A stretch of 64,000 nt of DNA from sequence record MF327006; one strand, given 5' to 3'. Under the pieces are notes generated by a model. It saw only the letters and a list, made by a program, of their open reading frames with translations, was not told where the DNA came from and searched no databases. Below, in pieces: positions 31,990-40,830 of this stretch. Each line of letters opens with the position of its first letter. Position 1 is the stretch's first letter. The stretch is from Shigella phage Sf20. Position numbers and translations under genes: made by a program.

Positions 31990-32191
31990 ACTTTCCCTCC
32001 AAAAATTCTTTCATCAAATAGTCTATCGTTGCTCTGTGTTCTGGTGTGTTTGTTATCTCTGCTAACTTGTTCAGAGATTCAATAGTGATCCGGTTGGCTT
32101 CTTCCATAGTCTCAAAGACCATCGGTACAATCTTTTTATTGTTGTACACGAAAGCCACATAACCGCCTTCTGGATATTCTTTCATAATCAA
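31982..32191 (-). CDS. hypothetical protein
   Basis: ORF track 69 aa; coupled to gene 52. Confidence 0.45.
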   Translation of the reverse strand: MIMKEYPEGGYVAFVYNNKKIVPMVFETMEEANRITIESLNKLAEITNTPEHRATIDYLMKEFLEGKYD

Positions 32192-33552
32192 CCCTTCTTA
32201 AGTTCTTTAAGATCTTTCTTATATTCCTTCATTGCGGTCGTCTTTGTCCAATACTCATATTCACTATGATGTTTATCGGCATCTTTGACCAGTCGATCAT
32301 ACTCTTCTTGAGTAACGCTATACAATGGCATAGAAACTAGCTTATCGGCGTATGGACGCAGTTTTTCATGTCCATTGATGGATTGCATTACCTCGGCCTT
32401 TTTCTTTCCCTGTAGTTCGATTTCGCCCTTAATTACAAGGTCGATAAATTCAGCTTTAGCCATTGCATAATTGTATGCTTCCAGTGTTTCCGCTTGCATC
32501 AATTCAATGCGTTTATCTACATAGCCTAATCGGATTTCGACGAATCGACGGATCAGATCGCTCGCTTTCTCGAATACTTCTACTAAACCACGTTCGTTAA
32601 CTACTACGATATTCTGGGCTACTAACTGCGTTAGTTTAAAATCCTTCATGATTTGCTCATGTCGAGCGGATTCATCTTCGCTTTTGAAATAATCACGTTT
32701 CAGTGTTACCTCAAATCTGAATCCGTCCTTAGAGCAACGGTCATTATACGATACAATCAGATCTTTTTCTTCCAGTGCATCCAGTACCGCTACATATTCT
32801 TCACGGTCGAACTTATAAGGAACTTCTGATATTGTCAGCTTAGTCTTGCCGTTTAGTTCATATGTACCCTCAAGAATAACACCATCGCGGTCATCGCGCG
32901 GGATAACTTTACCCGTGAATTTTGGGAATTGAACACTAGGTTCTTTATCCAGTTTTCCGGCAAGTGCTAGCTCTGTGCATTCAATGAGGCTTTCCAGTGA
33001 ATGCGGTAAAATGTCAGTTTTATACCCTGTAGCAATACCACTAATACCATTAGCCAATACCATTGGCACAACTGGCAAGTAGAACGCTGGCGGGATGTGT
33101 TCCAGATCTTCGTGCTTGGGTGCGCAATTCATATCTTTATAGATTTTAAAGAAGTTTTCATGCACACGAGCAAAGATATAACGTGCCGCACCTGCTTTCT
33201 GGACTAAACGAGATCCGAAGTTACCTTGACCGTCAAGCAGTGGAGTATTATTGCTCCATGTATTCGCCATGAGTGATCCGGCTTCTACGGCATTAGTTTC
33301 CCCGTGGTGATAACCCAACTCAGCAACACCAGATCCAATATCTGCCATCTTACGGAATTTCTTACGGTCGCCTTTACTCTTTTGTAAAGCACATTCCATA
33401 ACAAAGCGTTGCACTGGTTTAAGCCCATCCACTAATTGAGGAATCCCGCGTTCCTCGGCAGAATAGATCGCATATTCCTTAGCTTCATTATGTACAATGC
33501 TTTCAAGGCTGCGGTAAGTAAATGTGTTTACAATTTGACTAATTTTATCCAT
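32188..33552 (-). CDS. 52: DNA topoisomerase II medium subunit
   Basis: GIPQLVDGLKPVQRFV, AELGYHHGE, GNFGS, ARYIFARV motifs; ATG at 33550-33552 preferred over the track GTG start. Confidence 0.9.
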   Translation of the reverse strand: MDKISQIVNTFTYRSLESIVHNEAKEYAIYSAEERGIPQLVDGLKPVQRFVMECALQKSKGDRKKFRKMADIGSGVAELGYHHGETNAVEAGSLMANTWSNNTPLLDGQGNFGSRLVQKAGAARYIFARVHENFFKIYKDMNCAPKHEDLEHIPPAFYLPVVPMVLANGISGIATGYKTDILPHSLESLIECTELALAGKLDKEPSVQFPKFTGKVIPRDDRDGVILEGTYELNGKTKLTISEVPYKFDREEYVAVLDALEEKDLIVSYNDRCSKDGFRFEVTLKRDYFKSEDESARHEQIMKDFKLTQLVAQNIVVVNERGLVEVFEKASDLIRRFVEIRLGYVDKRIELMQAETLEAYNYAMAKAEFIDLVIKGEIELQGKKKAEVMQSINGHEKLRPYADKLVSMPLYSVTQEEYDRLVKDADKHHSEYEYWTKTTAMKEYKKDLKELKKG

Positions 33553-33559
33553 CTTCACC

Positions 33560-34604: not shown

Positions 34605-35606
34605 TTAGTAATGGCTAAAACCTTCGGTTACATCTTCAACCACATAGTAACGATGACAGCGCATTTTGGCATTCGCATAATCTTTCGGGATACTTACAAC
34701 GTGACGCGGATCAACTTTACATTTAATGATTCGGCCTCGTCCACCGCCATAGTGCGGAATATAGTGTTTAGCTGCAACGTGGAGGCCATTAGAGCAAGTG
34801 CGATCATCATCTGGGTCCACGTCTTTACGCTTCATTTTAACCGTGCGACCTGGGCTATTATCAAACGTATGCGTAAAGAAATCTTTATAATCAACATCAA
34901 CACGTTTCCATGCATAGAAACAACCATCTTCCACGATCTCAATGTCGTTGTGCTCTAAGAAGTCAAACAGACGATCTACGGCCTTACGGCTAGGGTTTTT
35001 CTTGCACTTCTCAAAGAAGTTCAGATAGTGCGTATATGGCTTATTCTCTTTAATCGACTCCACAACTCGACGAGTCAGATTATTATCAAGAACAATATTA
35101 TGATAATACACAATACCATTTTCGATACGGAAAGCGCCGTGATAATATACTTCAACCGCTTTCTTAATGTCAATCAGCGTAATAGCTTTGATGAAATCAT
35201 TATGTTTAATCGCTTCCAGTGCTTCATTAAAGTTAACATGCGACGGATCAGCAGTATAAACAATGTCACCACATGTAATAGTAATAAACTTAGTTGAGGC
35301 TATTGCTACGATTTTTGAGGAAGTAGTCACGGGCTTTTTTGCGCGTTCACCTCCTTTTCCTTTACTGGTTTTACGGCGTGCTTTACGTTTTTCTAGTGCC
35401 TTGCGACCTTCCGCTACTGCGTCTTTCTGAATCAGTAATACACGGGAGGCAGTACGACGAGATACCCCAAATGCTGCCGCAAGTGCTTCGCGGGTAGTAA
35501 ACTTACCTTCGCCCCACTGTTTGGCCAGTTTGATTTGTTTCGCAGAATCCAGGCATTGAACGTTACGGTCAGAGACGGTGATTTTTGCTTTAGTCATAGT
35601 ATTCAT
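34605..35606 (-). CDS. rIIB: rIIB protein
   Basis: N-terminal HTH-like FTTREALAAAFGVSRRTASRVL; SRKAVDRLFDFLEHNDIEIVEDGCFYAWK; DPRHVVSIPKDYANAKMR; resembles T4 rIIB. Confidence 0.8.
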   Translation of the reverse strand: MNTMTKAKITVSDRNVQCLDSAKQIKLAKQWGEGKFTTREALAAAFGVSRRTASRVLLIQKDAVAEGRKALEKRKARRKTSKGKGGERAKKPVTTSSKIVAIASTKFITITCGDIVYTADPSHVNFNEALEAIKHNDFIKAITLIDIKKAVEVYYHGAFRIENGIVYYHNIVLDNNLTRRVVESIKENKPYTHYLNFFEKCKKNPSRKAVDRLFDFLEHNDIEIVEDGCFYAWKRVDVDYKDFFTHTFDNSPGRTVKMKRKDVDPDDDRTCSNGLHVAAKHYIPHYGGGRGRIIKCKVDPRHVVSIPKDYANAKMRCHRYYVVEDVTEGFSHY

Positions 35607-35659
35607 TCCTCTATTAGTTGGGCGACTATCGCCGCCCGATTCACATCATTATACCAGAA

Positions 35660-35790
35660 TTATTTTGCTTCTACAACCTTGCGGATTGTGCGGTCTGATA
35701 CATTATAGATTCGTGCCAGTTCGCCTTTAGTCAAGCCGCGAGCGTATTGTTTACGGATGGTTTCTTTCTGGATAGCGGTCAGTTTAGTCA
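35660..35790 (-). pseudogene. frame-broken HTH minigene (duplicate of the rIIB N-terminal module)
   Basis: ATG 35788-35790 with SD GAGGTGA gives MTKLTAIQKE then stop after 19 codons; -1 frame continues TIRKQYARGLTKGELARIYNVSDRTIRKVVEAK. Confidence 0.35.
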
Positions 35791-35802
35791 TAATATCACC
35801 TC

Positions 35803-37911
35803 TTAAAATTTAACATTCTTAACCAGTTTCATAAAGTCTTGTGCGCGTTTGTCATTATGCAGAATACGATACCAGTTATCGACAATATCATACAGTAACG
35901 GGCTATTCTCTTTAAACTTCGCACAAACTGCTTTAATTCGTTCGTTTGCTACCGTGAATTTTTCATCACAGATCTTTTTAGTTTCTTCGTCCATAATCCA
36001 ACGAGTACGAAGGAGTAACTTGGAAACCTCTTTATTATAATGACGACCGTACAGTCTGTCAATAAATTCTGGAACACAGCGTTCTAGTTCATCGTCATGA
36101 AACAACATAGTGATCACACCCAGATATTCGCCATACCCCAGATGATTGGTCTTAACCTTCTTAGCCAGACCAGCCAGCTTACCGCGAACAAATTCTAGCG
36201 CACATTCCAATTGTTCGTCAACGAGATATTTTTGTGTCTCGTTTCGAGTAATAATATACTTTGTTACCCCGAAGTAGTCAAGCGCCGTATGTAATGTATT
36301 TTCACTATAGATCGATTTACGACTACGGCTTTCGAATGCATCACCTACGCGGAACATGTGCAAGCCTGATAACTCGCGAATCTCTGCCGCTTTCATGTGA
36401 TGGCTGGTTTTGTGCCAACTATCACCAATCTTTTCCATGATATACACGTTAGGCAGCTTGGGAGTAGCTTCACGTTGTGTACGCTCGGTCTTCTCCGGCT
36501 TAACTGCTTTAGCACGCAGATCATCGGCCTCTGATACCTTAATCACGGTCATTTCAGAATCATCATAATACTGTTTGATGTACTCGAAAGTCTCCATATG
36601 TTTTTCGTTGTTCTGACGGAACACCAGTACCTTTTTATTGATTCCGTATTCCTGGACCATGCCGTTAAGAGTCAGTGCACGCAGTTTCGGTTTATCGGTA
36701 TCATCAATAAGACACGTAATATCTTCTTTATGCATCCATACAAAATGCGTAATGTTGTATTGACTGCTAACGAAAGCAGGGCGCAATTTGCTGATTGTGT
36801 GACGAGTACGATACAGAGTATACACCTGACCTTCTACGTCATTTGGCGAATCTTTACCAGCATTCACAAACTTATTATAGATTGCTACCGGATCATCCCA
36901 CTGCCCGATCTTACCCATCTTGCTAATAATATTGCGTTGAGTCGATGAATACTCGCTCATAAATTGCGCAAGTTTACGCTCTGTTTTAATGTTGGCGATC
37001 TTTTCTTTAACCTTTTCCAACATCATTTCATTGATTTCTGCAATGCGTTTTTCGATGTTCGCTTTAGTCTCAATTGACAAGTGAACTTCTTCACGCGATG
37101 GCATAAGGTCCAGATCACCCAACTCAAAATTAATGTAAATGGTCTGGTGCTGGCGGTTTACAGCTTCTAACCATGTTCCGCGAACATATTCATACGGGAT
37201 CGGATACTGGATCTTACCCATGATTGCATATACTACATATGAATCGTTATCACGCCCATTGCAAACATAATAATTATCAAAGCTAGGGAAATAATTAATT
37301 TCGATTGCATTGATATTAGGTTTGTGTTCCCCAAAATGACGAAGTACAAATTGTGCTTCTCGATGCCATGTCTGAATGTCTTTTTCTTTCACCGGAATAG
37401 TGATTTTCAGACCGTTGTCTTCATAGGTCGGTTCGTCGAAAATCTGCACCATTTTCGGCATCGAGTTTTGCACAAATGCCGTAAAGCCATAAGCGCGACC
37501 ATTGTAATAGTTTACGATTGTAAAGGTGTCGGTATAGCTATAAGCAGATTTCGCACCTAAACCAAAAGATCCGATATAATCATTAGTCTGGTCTTTTGTT
37601 GATTCAAAGTAAACCGTAAACAGTTGTTCTAATTCTTTCTTAGACGGAATACCAGTACCATAATCACGCACAGAAAAATACGGTTCGATTGCAGTCGGTA
37701 AATGAATATCAAACGGACGATCTAAGGTTCCGGCTTCTTTGTGAGTGTCGGTAGCATTGCACGAATACTCACGGACGCAAGCACGCTCACAATATTGATA
37801 AGTGTTCTTAGAAAGCACCATAAAAGCCTTGCTACTTGCTTTCAGTGAAAAATCAACCGCACCGCTCAAGTCACTGCCAAATACTTCTTCATTATCAATA
37901 TGCATTTTCAT
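35803..37911 (-). CDS. rIIA: rIIA protein
   Basis: 702 aa; GHKL-ATPase-like DYGTGIP...GSFGLGAKSAYS; position next to rIIB. Confidence 0.8.
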   Translation of the reverse strand: MKMHIDNEEVFGSDLSGAVDFSLKASSKAFMVLSKNTYQYCERACVREYSCNATDTHKEAGTLDRPFDIHLPTAIEPYFSVRDYGTGIPSKKELEQLFTVYFESTKDQTNDYIGSFGLGAKSAYSYTDTFTIVNYYNGRAYGFTAFVQNSMPKMVQIFDEPTYEDNGLKITIPVKEKDIQTWHREAQFVLRHFGEHKPNINAIEINYFPSFDNYYVCNGRDNDSYVVYAIMGKIQYPIPYEYVRGTWLEAVNRQHQTIYINFELGDLDLMPSREEVHLSIETKANIEKRIAEINEMMLEKVKEKIANIKTERKLAQFMSEYSSTQRNIISKMGKIGQWDDPVAIYNKFVNAGKDSPNDVEGQVYTLYRTRHTISKLRPAFVSSQYNITHFVWMHKEDITCLIDDTDKPKLRALTLNGMVQEYGINKKVLVFRQNNEKHMETFEYIKQYYDDSEMTVIKVSEADDLRAKAVKPEKTERTQREATPKLPNVYIMEKIGDSWHKTSHHMKAAEIRELSGLHMFRVGDAFESRSRKSIYSENTLHTALDYFGVTKYIITRNETQKYLVDEQLECALEFVRGKLAGLAKKVKTNHLGYGEYLGVITMLFHDDELERCVPEFIDRLYGRHYNKEVSKLLLRTRWIMDEETKKICDEKFTVANERIKAVCAKFKENSPLLYDIVDNWYRILHNDKRAQDFMKLVKNVKF

Positions 37912-37925
37912 AATATGATCCTCAC

Positions 37926-38183
37926 TTAATTAAAATCTTCTTTGTCCATCTCTGCGTAGATTACATCCCACGCCCATAAATCAATAAACGCATTATATGT
38001 CACGGTGCAATCGTTGTCAATCACTTCTTTCGCATATTTCTTGATGTTTTCGTAGGAAACTTGCGGATCAATTTTGTGTTTACGAAGGTGTGCATATTCA
38101 TACCTCAAACATTTCATAAACAGGTCCATCGATTTCTTTTCTCGATGACACTTGGCGATCAGAAAATCAAAACTTCGACTCAT
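37926..38183 (-). CDS. hypothetical protein
   Basis: ORF track 85 aa. Confidence 0.45.
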   Translation of the reverse strand: MSRSFDFLIAKCHREKKSMDLFMKCLRYEYAHLRKHKIDPQVSYENIKKYAKEVIDNDCTVTYNAFIDLWAWDVIYAEMDKEDFN

Positions 38184-39006: not shown

Positions 39007-40830
39007 TTATGATTGCATCCAAATTTTGCGCTGATCTGCATCTTCACTATAGAGCAAATCGAATAGCTCTTTATAGTTTTCCGGTAACGTGATGATCTCC
39101 ATGACAGGATCGTTGATCACGCGATGATAGTCTGATTCTGTGAGCGATGCTAAACCTTTGATATATCGAATGTTGTAACCTTTGATATTATCTCGGTCGT
39201 TCTCGAAATCTTCTAGGTCATAATACCATCGAACATCATCACCTTTCTTTGGTTCAGCAATGATAATAGGTGTTTTGATAAACCGGATTCGTCCATCTTC
39301 GAACAATTCAGGCCAACGTGCAAAGAAAGAGATCAGACTAGGTTTAATAGACCCGATCCCGTCAGTATCAGCGTCGGTCATAATCGCAATATTTTTGTAT
39401 TGCATAACTTCCAATGCATCAACACCAAATTGCAAGCCAGTGATCGCCATGATGTTAAAAATTTCGGCGTTCTTAACGATCTTTGCCTCCGGTTGTTCCC
39501 ACGTTGTAAGAGTTTTGCCTCGCAACGGGAAACCGCCATGTAAATCTTGATCACGTACAGAGATCAGATAGTTGATCGCGGAATCACCTTCCGTCAAAAA
39601 CAGGGTAGTTTCTGCGTCAGTTCCAATAAGGTTAGCTTTAACGTGTTTTGCTACCTTAGCCCGTTTTGCTGCCTTTGCTGCCTTAGTCGCTGCCGCTTTA
39701 TCTGCTGCCTCTTTGCGTGCCAGGACTACAGCAATAATAGGCATGATAATGTTTTCTTTCTTCGCAATGACTTTAGCCAGCTTTTTAAAATCAAGATCAA
39801 TATGACGCTTGATATCACCAGTCGGGTTAGTCAAGCGTTCTTTTGTCTGTGAATCAAAACGAAGGTTAGGCAATTCACGAACAATAAGAATACAGGTCAA
39901 TCCAGATTTAACCGCAGCTTTAGTAACATCAACCTTATATTCTTTCTTGATTCGTTTTACAATCTCTTCACAAAGATCATCTGTCACATAATCAACGTGT
40001 GTTCCCCCGTTTTTGGTAAACAGACCGTTAGCAAAGGATACTGATTTAAAACCTTCTCCCTCGACCGCAGGAACTAGGGCAAGTGAAAAGTTTTTATCTT
40101 CAATGACAAACGGATCATCATTGTATAGTTTAGCATAATCCTTGAACTTACTAACAATACGTTTACCATTAAACTTAAACGTGATCTTAGGAAAGATTAC
40201 GCTCAATGATTGCAGACGATCATGAACAATATCTAAAACAGAGTTGTCCATCATATAACCTTCGAAGTGGTCGAAGTCTGGGCAAAATGTAACCTTTGTT
40301 CCCTTCAATTTTGATGGTTTTGATGACCATGTGATATTTTCAGCACCGTTTGTGCACTGTACGGTCATTTCTGTTTCGCCGTCACAGGTCACACCAGTAA
40401 ACCAATCGCTAAAGAAATTTGACAACGACGACCCCACACCGTTCATCCCTTGCGTTAATCGATTTGTATCATCAAAGTTAGACCCTGCTTTTGTTCGTGT
40501 CCATGCGGCTACAGGTTGCGGAATCTGCGTACCCTCTGGGGTAGTAACCATATGTTGAGGAATACCGCGACCATTGTCTGTTACCGTAACAATATTGTTT
40601 TGGATATCGACGCTAATCACATTGGCAAATTCAAAGTTAGTGCGGATCGCCTCGTCTACAGAGTTGTCGATGATCTCATCAATGATTTTAACCAGTCCAG
40701 GAACGTATGAAATTTTTGTCCATTTACCGAACAGGAAACGTTGATGTTCTTCGTAAGTTGTTGATCCTATATACATTCCTGCACGCTTAAGGACATGTTC
40801 ACGATCAGATAAAATGCGAAACTCACTCAT
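39007..40830 (-). CDS. 39: DNA topoisomerase II large (ATPase) subunit, unsplit 39+60 form
   Basis: 607 aa; GHKL ATPase N-terminus IDEIIDNSVDEA...TDNGRGIP; single continuous ORF. Confidence 0.85.
   Translation of the reverse strand: MSEFRILSDREHVLKRAGMYIGSTTYEEHQRFLFGKWTKISYVPGLVKIIDEIIDNSVDEAIRTNFEFANVISVDIQNNIVTVTDNGRGIPQHMVTTPEGTQIPQPVAAWTRTKAGSNFDDTNRLTQGMNGVGSSLSNFFSDWFTGVTCDGETEMTVQCTNGAENITWSSKPSKLKGTKVTFCPDFDHFEGYMMDNSVLDIVHDRLQSLSVIFPKITFKFNGKRIVSKFKDYAKLYNDDPFVIEDKNFSLALVPAVEGEGFKSVSFANGLFTKNGGTHVDYVTDDLCEEIVKRIKKEYKVDVTKAAVKSGLTCILIVRELPNLRFDSQTKERLTNPTGDIKRHIDLDFKKLAKVIAKKENIIMPIIAVVLARKEAADKAAATKAAKAAKRAKVAKHVKANLIGTDAETTLFLTEGDSAINYLISVRDQDLHGGFPLRGKTLTTWEQPEAKIVKNAEIFNIMAITGLQFGVDALEVMQYKNIAIMTDADTDGIGSIKPSLISFFARWPELFEDGRIRFIKTPIIIAEPKKGDDVRWYYDLEDFENDRDNIKGYNIRYIKGLASLTESDYHRVINDPVMEIITLPENYKELFDLLYSEDADQRKIWMQS

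What the first reader, a model, noticed from the sequence alone, without database searches (positions are those of the whole stretch)
35607..35802. Frame-broken duplicate of the rIIB N-terminal HTH between rIIA and rIIB
An ATG with SD GAGGTGA at 35790 opens MTKLTAIQKE, then hits a stop after 19 codons. The -1 frame continues as TIRKQYARGLTKGELARIYNVSDRTIRKVVEAK, which parallels the HTH-like start of rIIB itself (KFTTREALAAAFGVSRRTASRVL). The break is in an A-rich run (CAGAAAGAACC). This is either a homopolymer sequencing error, a decaying duplicate, or a slippage site.
Basis: seen in the sequence. Interest (0 to 1): 0.45.

Follow-up and report, generated by a model that had tools for sequence, protein, structure and literature searches.

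The report
Intact small HTH gene beside rIIB
The reported frame break is a misreading by one base: the window (an RB49-like T4 relative) carries an intact, strongly conserved 43-amino-acid gene between rIIA and rIIB that encodes a free-standing copy of the DNA-binding helix-turn-helix module normally found at the start of rIIB.

Summary
The frame break does not exist. The real sequence is CAGAAAGAAACC, and 35660..35791(-) is one uninterrupted 43-aa ORF.

The window is a Krischvirus (RB49-like). The ORF is RB49p274, annotated "hypothetical protein" in 58 phage records, seen on 515 contigs, and matching PHROG 15481 over its full length. It is not decaying: against relatives with saturated synonymous sites it keeps 77-86% amino-acid identity, while rIIA keeps 38-44% and rIIB about 62%.

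The ORF is a confident three-helix HTH (pLDDT 90.7) and is homologous to the N-terminal HTH module of rIIB proteins (hhalign 99.1%, E=1.2e-18). It starts 11 nt after the rIIA stop, where rIIB starts in T4. A published type of promoter-plus-stem-loop cassette (PeSL) separates it from an rIIB that keeps its own, more diverged HTH.

Best reading: a split-off or partially duplicated rIIB 5' module, kept as a small DNA-binding protein expressed with the rII genes. Its function is untested. A generic-HTH or homing-endonuclease origin is not excluded. It is ordinary as a gene and mildly interesting as an rII architecture variant.

The parts
35660..35791 (-). Intact 43-aa ORF (MTKLTAIQKETIRKQYARGLTKGELARIYNVSDRTIRKVVEAK, stop TAA). 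It is a free-standing three-helix HTH, equal to RB49p274 and PHROG 15481.
   Evidence: ORF list and translation; PHROG 15481 positions 1-43 of 43, E=3e-34; Pfam CENP-B_N 26 bits against a cut-off of 21.2; AF2 pLDDT 90.7 with helices 6-18, 22-28 and 33-41; annotated CDS in kaaroe, GEC-3S and RB49.
35796..35802 (-). Shine-Dalgarno GAGGTGA of the small ORF, directly after the rIIA stop (TAA 35805..35803). The gap from stop to ATG is 11 nt.
   Evidence: Sequence; junction comparison with T4 (11 nt), KPV15 (0 nt) and L002/L003/L009/L013 (4-16 nt).
35759..35770 (-). CAGAAAGAAACC, the place of the alleged frame break.
35803..37911 (-). rIIA (702 aa), upstream gene on the same strand.
   Evidence: PHROG 612 E=5e-188; annotation in relatives.
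34605..35597 (-). rIIB (330 aa from ATG 35597; the longest ORF starts at 35606 but lies directly against the SD).
   Evidence: PHROG 609 E=3e-106; GenBank records give 993 nt; SD AGAGGA at 35612..35607 is 9 nt from ATG 35597.
35436..35564 (-). rIIB's own N-terminal HTH module (about residues 12-54), a diverged copy of the same module (...FGVSRRTASRVL).
   Evidence: rIIB-N profile 24.5-24.6 bits; AF2 model of rIIB has helices 18-29, 36-42 and 47-56 at pLDDT 96-98, then a disordered linker at 80-93 and the C-terminal domain.
35607..35676 (-). PeSL-type intergenic cassette: -35 TTGTAG (35676..35671, inside the ORF's 3' end), 17-nt spacer, TGG-TATAAT (-10 at 35653..35648), stem-loop GGGCGGC-GAUA-GUCGCCC (35637..35620), SD AGAGGA (35612..35607).
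   Evidence: Sequence; fold -17.9 kcal/mol, z=-2.4; the same promoter is annotated by the depositors of GEC-3S; hairpins with different sequence at the same place in L002, L003, L009 and L013; PeSL definition in PMC2839356.
36034..36062 (-). Perfect sigma-70 consensus promoter (TTGACA-17-TATAAT) inside the 3' end of rIIA, 243 nt upstream of the small ORF's ATG. It is a likely early promoter for the ORF, with read-through into rIIB.
   Evidence: 10 perfect matches in the window, all on the minus strand, 0.07 expected.

Best explanation
The locus is an intact, expressed-looking 43-codon gene, not a broken one. It encodes a minimal three-helix helix-turn-helix protein that is a free-standing homolog of the HTH module forming the N-terminus of rIIB in T4 and many T4-like phages.

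Shown: the ORF is uninterrupted. It is conserved in the same slot (rIIA | small ORF | rIIB) across phages whose rIIA is only about 40% identical, and it is under strong purifying selection. Its profile matches rIIB N-terminal modules. It begins a few nucleotides after the rIIA stop with its own SD, as rIIB does in T4 and KPV15. A promoter-plus-stem-loop (PeSL-type) cassette separates it from an rIIB that keeps a second, more diverged HTH.

Inferred origin (about 0.65): the gene descends from an rIIB 5' end. One route is a multi-HTH rIIB, like the 3-module rIIB of L002, split by a stop and a PeSL. The other is replacement of the body of a resident T4-type rIIB by an incoming PeSL-rIIB cassette, of the arrangement seen in L011, leaving the resident HTH as a stub that was then retained.

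Inferred function (about 0.35): it is made early from the rIIA promoters and the perfect promoter at 36062..36034, translated right after rIIA, and acts as a small sequence-specific DNA-binding protein supplying in trans the HTH activity that other phages carry on rIIB. In that case it would be a third component of the rII system. Its target is unknown. Helix 2, the turn and helix 3 (TKGELAR[IV]YNVSDRTIR) are invariant across the clade, which argues for a conserved target.
For: Intact ORF. Identity and annotation. Same slot in divergent phages L002, L003/L004, L009/L010 and L013, and absent from L011, T4 and KPV15/Kpn6N. Selection: amino-acid identity 77-86% against rIIA 38-44% and rIIB about 62%; pN 0.07-0.17 with pS 0.65-0.73. 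Fold: pLDDT 90.7, three helices; best structural matches are DNA-bound HTHs of IstA, Hin, gamma-delta resolvase and CENP-B at TM 0.74-0.83. Homology to the rIIB N-module: hhalign 99.1%, E=1.2e-18. An rIIB-only profile, excluding the rIIBs of ORF-bearing phages, scores the ORF family at 39-47 bits, at the top of 160 targets and above the HNH-linked HTHs at 23-28 bits. That profile hits only two places in the window. Pairwise, KPV15 gives E=1e-8, T4 5e-4 and L002 repeats 7e-5 and 2e-4. Across 50,697 phage records, the non-self tblastn hits shown fall overwhelmingly on rIIB N-termini. Variable HTH copy number in rIIB: three modules in L002 and two in P0135. Junction geometry. PeSL cassette. rIIB's own N-terminus still folds as an HTH.
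Against: From the ORF's side, the best single-domain matches among 1.84 billion proteins are not rIIB. They are C-terminal HTHs of NUMOD4/HNH_3 endonucleases and small standalone HTH proteins at 42-49 bits, against at most 34 bits for any rIIB N-terminus. Pairwise identity to those HNH HTHs (52-55%) is as high as to the best rIIB modules (48-50%). In the reciprocal test the ORF family's margin over the best generic HTHs is small (39-47 against up to 40.5 bits). There is no direct similarity to the adjacent rIIB. No un-split intermediate was found whose first module groups with the ORF. DNA binding, expression and any link to rII function are untested. dS is saturated, so dN/dS values are only rough.
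Confidence: 0.6

Rival explanations
1. Independent acquisition of a generic mobile HTH. The ORF is the surviving C-terminal DNA-binding domain of a homing (NUMOD4/HNH) endonuclease that once sat between rIIA and rIIB, or a small HTH regulator picked up as a cassette. Its likeness to the rIIB N-terminus would then only reflect membership of the same broad HTH class.
For: The best single-domain hits of the ORF profile are HNH_3/NUMOD4 proteins P0093 (49 bits) and P0111 (47 bits) and standalone 49-60-aa HTH proteins. Identity is 52-55% to those HTHs. The ORF is next to a PeSL, an element documented to shuffle small ORFs in RB49 and phi1. Homing endonucleases are common between conserved genes in T4-like phages (established knowledge).
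Against: Those hits are the extreme tail of 1.84 billion proteins, whereas only about 70 rIIBs were sampled. The rIIB-only profile prefers the ORF (39-47 bits) to the HNH HTHs (23-28 bits). No nuclease remnant is possible, because the ORF's ATG is 11 nt after the rIIA stop, so the whole nuclease part would have had to be deleted flush. A PeSL lies only downstream, so the ORF is not a PeSL-flanked cassette. No other copy of the module or linked HNH is found in the window. The position is the same in all five divergent lineages.
Confidence: 0.2
2. The small HTH is a local transcription regulator. It binds at or near the promoter that overlaps its own 3' end and tunes rIIB expression or termination at the stem-loop, with no role in the rII function itself.
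For: The -35 of the downstream promoter lies inside the ORF's last codons, and the -10 and hairpin follow immediately. Small HTH genes next to promoters are often their regulators (general knowledge). There are weak profile matches to Mor/late activator, sigma-70 region 4 and antiterminator Q HTHs. RB49 lacks MotA and middle promoters, which leaves room for other regulators (PMC1524935).
Against: No operator-like repeat is evident apart from the hairpin, and the promoter and hairpin sequences differ between lineages while the recognition helix is invariant, which does not fit a co-evolving local operator. Nothing was tested experimentally.
Confidence: 0.15
3. One reading: a frame-broken ORF caused by a homopolymer sequencing error, a decaying duplicate, or a programmed slippage site.
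For: None in the sequence. It rests on a one-base misreading.
Against: The ORF is continuous and the quoted string is absent. The ORF is identical and intact in 58 independently sequenced phages and on 515 contigs. It is under strong purifying selection. There is no slippery heptamer or A-run longer than 3.
Confidence: 0.01

Closest known systems
N-terminal HTH module of T4-type rIIB proteins (T4 rIIB residues about 5-47; proteins carrying Pfam PF26926 Phage_T4_rIIB)
   Same: Same three-helix HTH with the shared motif L-x3-QK-x2-I-x6-G-x-TK-x-ELA-x3-VS-x-RTI-x-RV. Profile-profile probability is 99.1%. It sits in the same place, directly after the rIIA stop with a tightly spaced SD.
   Different: It is not attached to the rIIB C-terminal domain. 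It is its own cistron, ending 3-4 residues after helix 3, in a different frame from rIIB, and separated from it by a 62-nt promoter and stem-loop cassette. The downstream rIIB has a second HTH of its own. The ORF is far better conserved than rIIB N-termini generally are.
PHROG 15481 / RB49p274 (NP_891845) and orthologs in Krischvirus genomes
   Same: It is this family: full-length match at E=3e-34, with 98-100% identity to the annotated CDS.
   Different: None. The family has no assigned function, and my paper searches found no published link to rIIB.
C-terminal HTH of phage NUMOD4/HNH_3 homing endonucleases and related 49-60-aa standalone HTH proteins
   Same: Highest single-domain sequence scores (42-49 bits) and 52-55% identity, with the same KLT...Q...I...Y..G.T..ELA..Y.VS..TI..V pattern.
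   Different: There is no nuclease domain and no room for one. The rIIB-only profile scores these HTHs clearly lower than the ORF. The genomic context is different.
PeSL (promoter-early stem-loop) cassettes of RB49 and phi1, Arbiol et al. 2010 (PMC2839356)
   Same: The 62-nt spacer after the ORF has the described parts in the described order: upstream stop in an AT-rich stretch, sigma-70-type -35 and -10, a G-run/C-run stem-loop just after the -10, then SD and ATG.
   Different: The -35 is a weak match (TTGTAG, 3 of 6). Neither PeSL paper mentions rII genes. The ORF has a PeSL on one side only, so it is not a typical PeSL-flanked ORFan cassette.
DNA-binding domains of Hin and gamma-delta resolvase, the IstA transposase N-terminal HTH, and CENP-B N-terminal domain
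   Same: Closest solved folds: TM 0.74-0.83 normalised to the query, with rmsd 1.1-1.6 A for IstA, Hin and CENP-B and 4.3 A for resolvase. The Pfam CENP-B_N hit is above its cut-off.
   Different: Foldseek E-values are not significant for so small a domain. No recombinase or transposase catalytic domain is present. The similarity is to a fold class, not evidence of shared function.

Membership tests
rIIB N-terminal HTH module | Three-helix helix-turn-helix fold | tested here: met
   AF2 pLDDT 90.7 with helices 6-18, 22-28 and 33-41. The window's rIIB N-terminus has helices 18-29, 36-42 and 47-56.
rIIB N-terminal HTH module | Sequence profile match to rIIB N-termini | tested here: met
   hhalign 99.1%, E=1.2e-18. 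A profile from 46 rIIB N-termini gives 41 bits, E=7e-12 in the window.
rIIB N-terminal HTH module | Closest relatives overall are rIIB N-termini | tested here: inconclusive
   Yes among 50,697 phage genomes and in the reciprocal profile test. No by single-domain score in the 1.84-billion-protein search, where HNH-linked and standalone HTHs score higher.
rIIB N-terminal HTH module | Covalently joined to the rIIB C-terminal domain | tested here: not met
   Stop TAA at 35662..35660, a 62-nt spacer, and rIIB in another frame.
rIIB N-terminal HTH module | Encoded immediately downstream of the rIIA stop | tested here: met
   11-nt gap, as in T4; 0 nt in KPV15.
PHROG 15481 | Full-length profile match | tested here: met
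   Positions 1-43 of 43, E=3e-34.
Pfam CENP-B_N (PF04218) / psq-type HTH | Score above the gathering cut-off | tested here: met
   26.0 bits against 21.2. Sigma70_r4 at 21.1 against 24.1, and all other HTH families, fall below their cut-offs.
Programmed frameshift / slippage site | Coding sequence continues in a shifted frame after an in-frame stop | tested here: not met
   Single continuous frame. The apparent shift arises only if one A is deleted.
Programmed frameshift / slippage site | Slippery homopolymer or X XXY YYZ heptamer | tested here: not met
   The sequence is CAGAAAGAAACC, and the longest run is AAA.
Pseudogene / decaying duplicate | Disabling mutations or relaxed selection | tested here: not met
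   Intact in 58 phage records and 5 divergent lineages. pN is far below pS, and the ORF is better conserved than rIIA and rIIB.
PeSL cassette (Arbiol et al. 2010) | Intergenic sigma-70-like promoter plus stable stem-loop between the upstream stop and the downstream SD/ATG | tested here: met
   The elements are located. A 7-bp GC stem folds at -17.9 kcal/mol. The promoter is annotated in GEC-3S.
PeSL cassette (Arbiol et al. 2010) | Promoter and terminator activity | not testable with these tools
   Needs reporter fusions or transcript mapping. The -35 matches the consensus at only 3 of 6 positions, so the consensus scan did not list it.
HNH homing endonuclease with C-terminal HTH | HNH/NUMOD nuclease domain upstream of the HTH | tested here: not met
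   The ORF is 43 aa and starts 11 nt after the rIIA stop. P0093 and P0111 carry HNH_3/NUMOD4 domains, and the ORF does not.

The most novel reading that the evidence does not exclude
In the RB49-like clade the rII system would have three parts. The ancestral N-terminal HTH of rIIB was cut off as a separate cistron, by PeSL-mediated replacement or splitting of rIIB. It has since been kept under stronger constraint than rIIA or rIIB because it carries out, in trans, the DNA-binding (or other target-binding) step of rII function. If so, the HTH's role could be studied separately from the rest of rIIB. That region corresponds to the classic 'dispensable' B1 segment of T4 rIIB (my own knowledge, not checked here).
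Probability: 0.3. Interest if true: 0.45.

Novelty: new member of a known kind. Interest (0 to 1): 0.25.

Why it matters
As flagged (a frameshift, slippage site or pseudogene), it does not matter, because the break is a reading slip. What remains is modest but useful. A 43-aa gene annotated as "hypothetical" in dozens of RB49-like genomes can now be described as a free-standing rIIB-type HTH sitting where rIIB begins in T4, next to a PeSL cassette. The molecular function of rIIA and rIIB is still unclear, although rIIAB counters RexAB and RIIB triggers CARD-gasdermin defence (PMC10312443). A naturally detached and unusually conserved copy of the rIIB HTH gives a simple genetic handle: knock out one small gene to ask what that domain does. 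It is also a plausible worked example of PeSL-linked gene splitting.

Tried and rejected
- Direct BLASTP of the ORF against the window's own rIIB gave only a 6-residue chance match, E=27, so the relationship is visible only through profiles or other phages' rIIBs.
- Rfam scan of 35400..36200 at E up to 1 found nothing.
- IMG/VR scan with the ORF family returned only two Krischvirus contigs and one unrelated high-GC phage with a generic HTH (L017), which was not informative.
- Paper searches for RB49p274, NP_891845 and ORF274c gave no hits. A search for r1589 and rIIB gave only the BASEL paper's note on an rIIAB fusion strain. Neither PeSL paper mentions rII.
- The sigma-70 consensus scan did not list the promoter overlapping the ORF's 3' end, because its -35 matches only 3 of 6 positions. 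I rely on the sequence and on the GEC-3S depositors' annotation.
It was rerun without them.
That was wrong, because position 3 is U, and I withdraw it. The loops in L009 (UGCG) and L011 (UUCG) are UNCG-type.
- Read-through of the ORF into rIIB was considered and rejected. The two are in different frames, and an in-frame TGA follows.
- I treated the exact 11-nt match to T4's rIIA-rIIB gap as partly coincidental, because relatives vary from 0 to 16 nt. Only the tight coupling to the rIIA stop is meaningful.

Full report
**1. Checking the observation**

On the minus strand, the rIIA stop (TAA, 35805..35803) is followed by GAGGTGA and, 11 nt after the stop, an ATG at 35791. From that ATG the frame runs without interruption for 43 codons to TAA at 35662..35660. 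The product is MTKLTAIQKETIRKQYARGLTKGELARIYNVSDRTIRKVVEAK.

The real sequence at 35770..35759 is CAGAAAGAAACC.

So the ATG, the SD and the HTH-like peptide are real, and the frame break is a one-base reading slip. The longest A-run is three, and there is no slippery heptamer.

**2. What the window is and how the ORF is known**

The 801 bases around the site match 58 phage records at 95-99% identity. All are RB49-like Krischvirus of E. coli and Shigella. The ORF is annotated as a 132-nt "hypothetical protein" CDS in kaaroe, GEC-3S and RB49 (RB49p274, NP_891845).

tblastn finds it full-length at 95% identity or more in all 58 records. The exact protein occurs on 515 contigs under the names "hypothetical protein", "sigma24 family protein" and "HTH psq-type domain-containing protein". 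It matches PHROG 15481 end to end (E=3e-34) and Pfam CENP-B_N above its cut-off, with sub-threshold hits to many other HTH families.

My searches found no paper that discusses it.

**3. It is a real gene under strong constraint**

Homologs of 43-45 aa lie in the same slot, between rIIA and rIIB, in four further lineages from metagenomes: L002, L003/L004, L009/L010 and L013. The comparison of the window with these lineages is in the table below.

| Measure | Small ORF | rIIA | rIIB |
|---|---|---|---|
| Amino-acid identity (L003, L009, L013) | 77-86% | 38-44% | about 62% (L009, L013) |
| pS, synonymous differences (L003, L009, L013) | 0.65-0.73 (saturated) | 0.74-0.77 | 0.73 (L009, L013) |
| pN, non-synonymous differences (L003, L009, L013) | 0.07-0.17 | 0.38-0.43 | 0.26-0.27 (L009, L013) |
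| Amino-acid identity, window vs L002 | 73% | 39% | 54% |

Residues 21-37 (TKGELAR[IV]YNVSDRTIR), which cover helix 2, the turn and the recognition helix, are invariant except for one I/V position. This is the opposite of a decaying duplicate.

AlphaFold2 gives a confident three-helix bundle (pLDDT 90.7; helices 6-18, 22-28 and 33-41). The nearest solved folds are DNA-bound HTHs of IstA, Hin, gamma-delta resolvase and CENP-B (TM 0.74-0.83).

**4. Relationship to the rIIB N-terminus**

Direct BLASTP against the neighbouring rIIB finds nothing. The ORF does align to the N-termini of other phages' rIIBs:

- KPV15 residues 3-42: 53% identity, pairwise E=1e-8.
- T4 residues 7-45: 41% identity, E=5e-4.
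- Repeats 2 and 3 of the L002 rIIB: E=7e-5 and 2e-4.

Across 50,697 phage records, the non-self tblastn hits shown fall overwhelmingly on the first roughly 40 codons of rIIB genes of Klebsiella, Enterobacter, Serratia, Raoultella and Erwinia T4-likes.

I then built a profile from 46 rIIB N-termini, excluding the rIIBs of ORF-bearing phages.

- It scores the ORF family at 39-47 bits. That is the top of 160 targets, which included the 149 proteins most similar to the ORF out of 1.84 billion.
- The HNH-linked HTHs score 23-28 bits.
- In a six-frame search of the whole window it hits only two adjacent places: the ORF (41 bits, E=7e-12) and the rIIB N-terminus (24.5 bits, E=3e-7).

hhalign of the two alignments gives 99.1% probability, E=1.2e-18, over 39 columns. 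The window's rIIB still folds with an N-terminal three-helix HTH, then a disordered linker and the C-terminal domain.

The HTH copy number on rIIB varies. L002's rIIB has three tandem modules, P0135 has two, and distant rIIBs have none.

**5. The caveat**

The exhaustive profile search from the ORF's side shows that the module belongs to a very widespread HTH type. By single-domain score, the best matches are C-terminal HTHs of NUMOD4/HNH_3 endonucleases (P0093 at 49 bits, P0111 at 47 bits) and small standalone HTH proteins (39-46 bits). No rIIB N-terminus scores above 34 bits. Pairwise identities to those HNH HTHs (52-55%) equal or exceed those to rIIB modules.

Those hits are the extreme tail of a huge library, while only about 70 rIIBs were sampled, and the reciprocal test favours rIIB. 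Still, the margin in that test is small (the best generic HTH scores 40.5 bits). Homology to the rIIB module family is well supported. Descent specifically from an rIIB gene is likely but not proven.

**6. Anatomy and likely origin**

The ORF begins where rIIB begins in T4.

| Phage | Junction after the rIIA stop |
|---|---|
| T4 (rIIA to rIIB) | TAA-TAAGGAAAATT-ATG...CTGACC |
| Window (rIIA to ORF) | TAA-GAGGTGATATT-ATG...CTGACC |

The gap from the rIIA stop to the next ATG is 11 nt in both. It is 0 nt in KPV15 and 4-16 nt in the other ORF-bearing phages.

The rIIB of every ORF-bearing phage is instead preceded by a 50-80-nt spacer. In the window this spacer contains:

- -35 TTGTAG (35676..35671), inside the ORF's last codons
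- a 17-nt spacer
- TGG-TATAAT (-10 at 35653..35648)
- a 7-bp GC stem-loop (35637..35620)
- SD AGAGGA (35612..35607)

The depositors of GEC-3S annotated the same promoter. Each related lineage has a stable hairpin at this place with a different sequence.

This matches the PeSL (promoter-early stem-loop) cassettes described in RB49 and phi1, which act as promoters and terminators and mediate shuffling of small genes (PMC2839356). L011 lacks the small ORF and has a hairpin and a promoter directly between rIIA and a complete rIIB.

Two routes fit the data:

- A multi-HTH rIIB was split by a stop and a PeSL.
- The body of a resident T4-type rIIB was replaced by an incoming PeSL-rIIB cassette, leaving the resident HTH as a stub.

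The second route would explain why the ORF resembles single-module T4-type N-termini more than its own neighbour. I could not discriminate between the two.

**7. Likely function**

Expression signals are good:

- a strong SD
- tight coupling to rIIA
- a perfect TTGACA-17-TATAAT promoter 243 nt upstream, inside rIIA. It is one of 10 perfect promoters in the window, all on the minus strand, with 0.07 expected by chance.

From the fold and the invariant recognition helix, I infer a small sequence-specific DNA-binding protein made early together with rIIA and rIIB. It probably provides in trans what the rIIB N-terminal HTH provides in other phages. rIIB has been regarded as a transcription-factor-like protein and rIIA as a GHKL ATPase (PMC7824862). 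rIIAB counters RexAB, and RIIB is sensed by CARD-gasdermin systems (PMC10312443).

From my own knowledge, not checked here, the N-terminal segment of T4 rIIB is the classically dispensable "B1" region used in the Crick-Brenner frameshift work. The role of this HTH is therefore genuinely open. A local regulatory role at the overlapping promoter is a rival. It sits poorly with the invariant helix facing variable promoter and hairpin sequences in different lineages.

**8. Verdict**

The flagged anomaly is an artefact of reading. The underlying feature is an already annotated, intact, highly conserved small HTH gene. The useful new point is that it is a free-standing rIIB-type HTH in the rIIB start position, separated from rIIB by a PeSL.

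- Novelty: new member of a known kind.
- Interest: low to moderate (0.25).

Noticed in passing
window 35607..35676 (-): PeSL-type cassette between the small ORF and rIIB: -35 TTGTAG inside the ORF's 3' end, TGG-TATAAT, a 7-bp GC stem-loop GGGCGGC-GAUA-GUCGCCC (35637..35620), then the SD. A hairpin with a different sequence sits at the same place in L002, L003, L009 and L013. In L003 and L013 the -10 box lies in the hairpin loop.
   Followed up: partly
window, minus strand: 11448, 12301, 13397, 15759, 16315, 36034, 37992, 38976, 52365, 55093: Ten perfect TTGACA-N16-18-TATAAT promoters, all on the minus strand (0.07 expected by chance). Two lie inside coding sequence: 36034..36062 in the 3' end of rIIA and 37992..38020 in the ORF upstream of rIIA. 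The spacer of the 36034 promoter holds the near-palindrome GACTGTACGGTC.
   Followed up: partly
window 35595..35606 (-): The longest rIIB ORF starts at ATG 35606, but that codon abuts the SD AGAGGA. The ATG at 35597 (9-nt spacing, MTKAK...) is the start used in GenBank records, giving 330 aa. Both rIIB and the small ORF then begin with MTK.
   Followed up: partly
L002 4685..6064 (protein P0009): An rIIB of 459 aa with three tandem N-terminal HTH modules (56, 52 and 38 bits to the rIIB-N profile), in addition to the separate 43-aa HTH gene upstream. P0135 (775 aa) has two HTH modules, a long insert and the rIIB C-terminal domain.
   Followed up: partly
proteins P0075-P0092 from the exhaustive search: Proteins of 220-720 aa made of 2-5 tandem copies of this HTH type scoring 10 bits or more in my recount (4-7 matched stretches in the search output), without an rIIB domain. 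Their function and genomic context are unknown.
   Followed up: no
L011 3917..4001; L009 3948..4001: The intergenic hairpins here have UNCG-type tetraloops (UUCG in L011, UGCG in L009), reminiscent of the very stable tetraloop hairpins known from T4 intercistronic regions (my own knowledge). In L011 the hairpin precedes a TTTACA-17-TATAAT promoter directly between rIIA and rIIB.
   Followed up: no
window 39007..40830 (-) and 32188..33558 (-): The topoisomerase II large subunit is a single 607-aa ORF here, not split into genes 39 and 60 as annotated in T4. The medium subunit (gp52 homolog, 456 aa) lies about 1 kb downstream of rIIB.
   Followed up: no
window 37926..38183 (-): An 85-aa ORF sits directly upstream of rIIA, in the position of T4 rIIA.1. 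It contains one of the perfect promoters (38020..37992) in its coding sequence.
   Followed up: no
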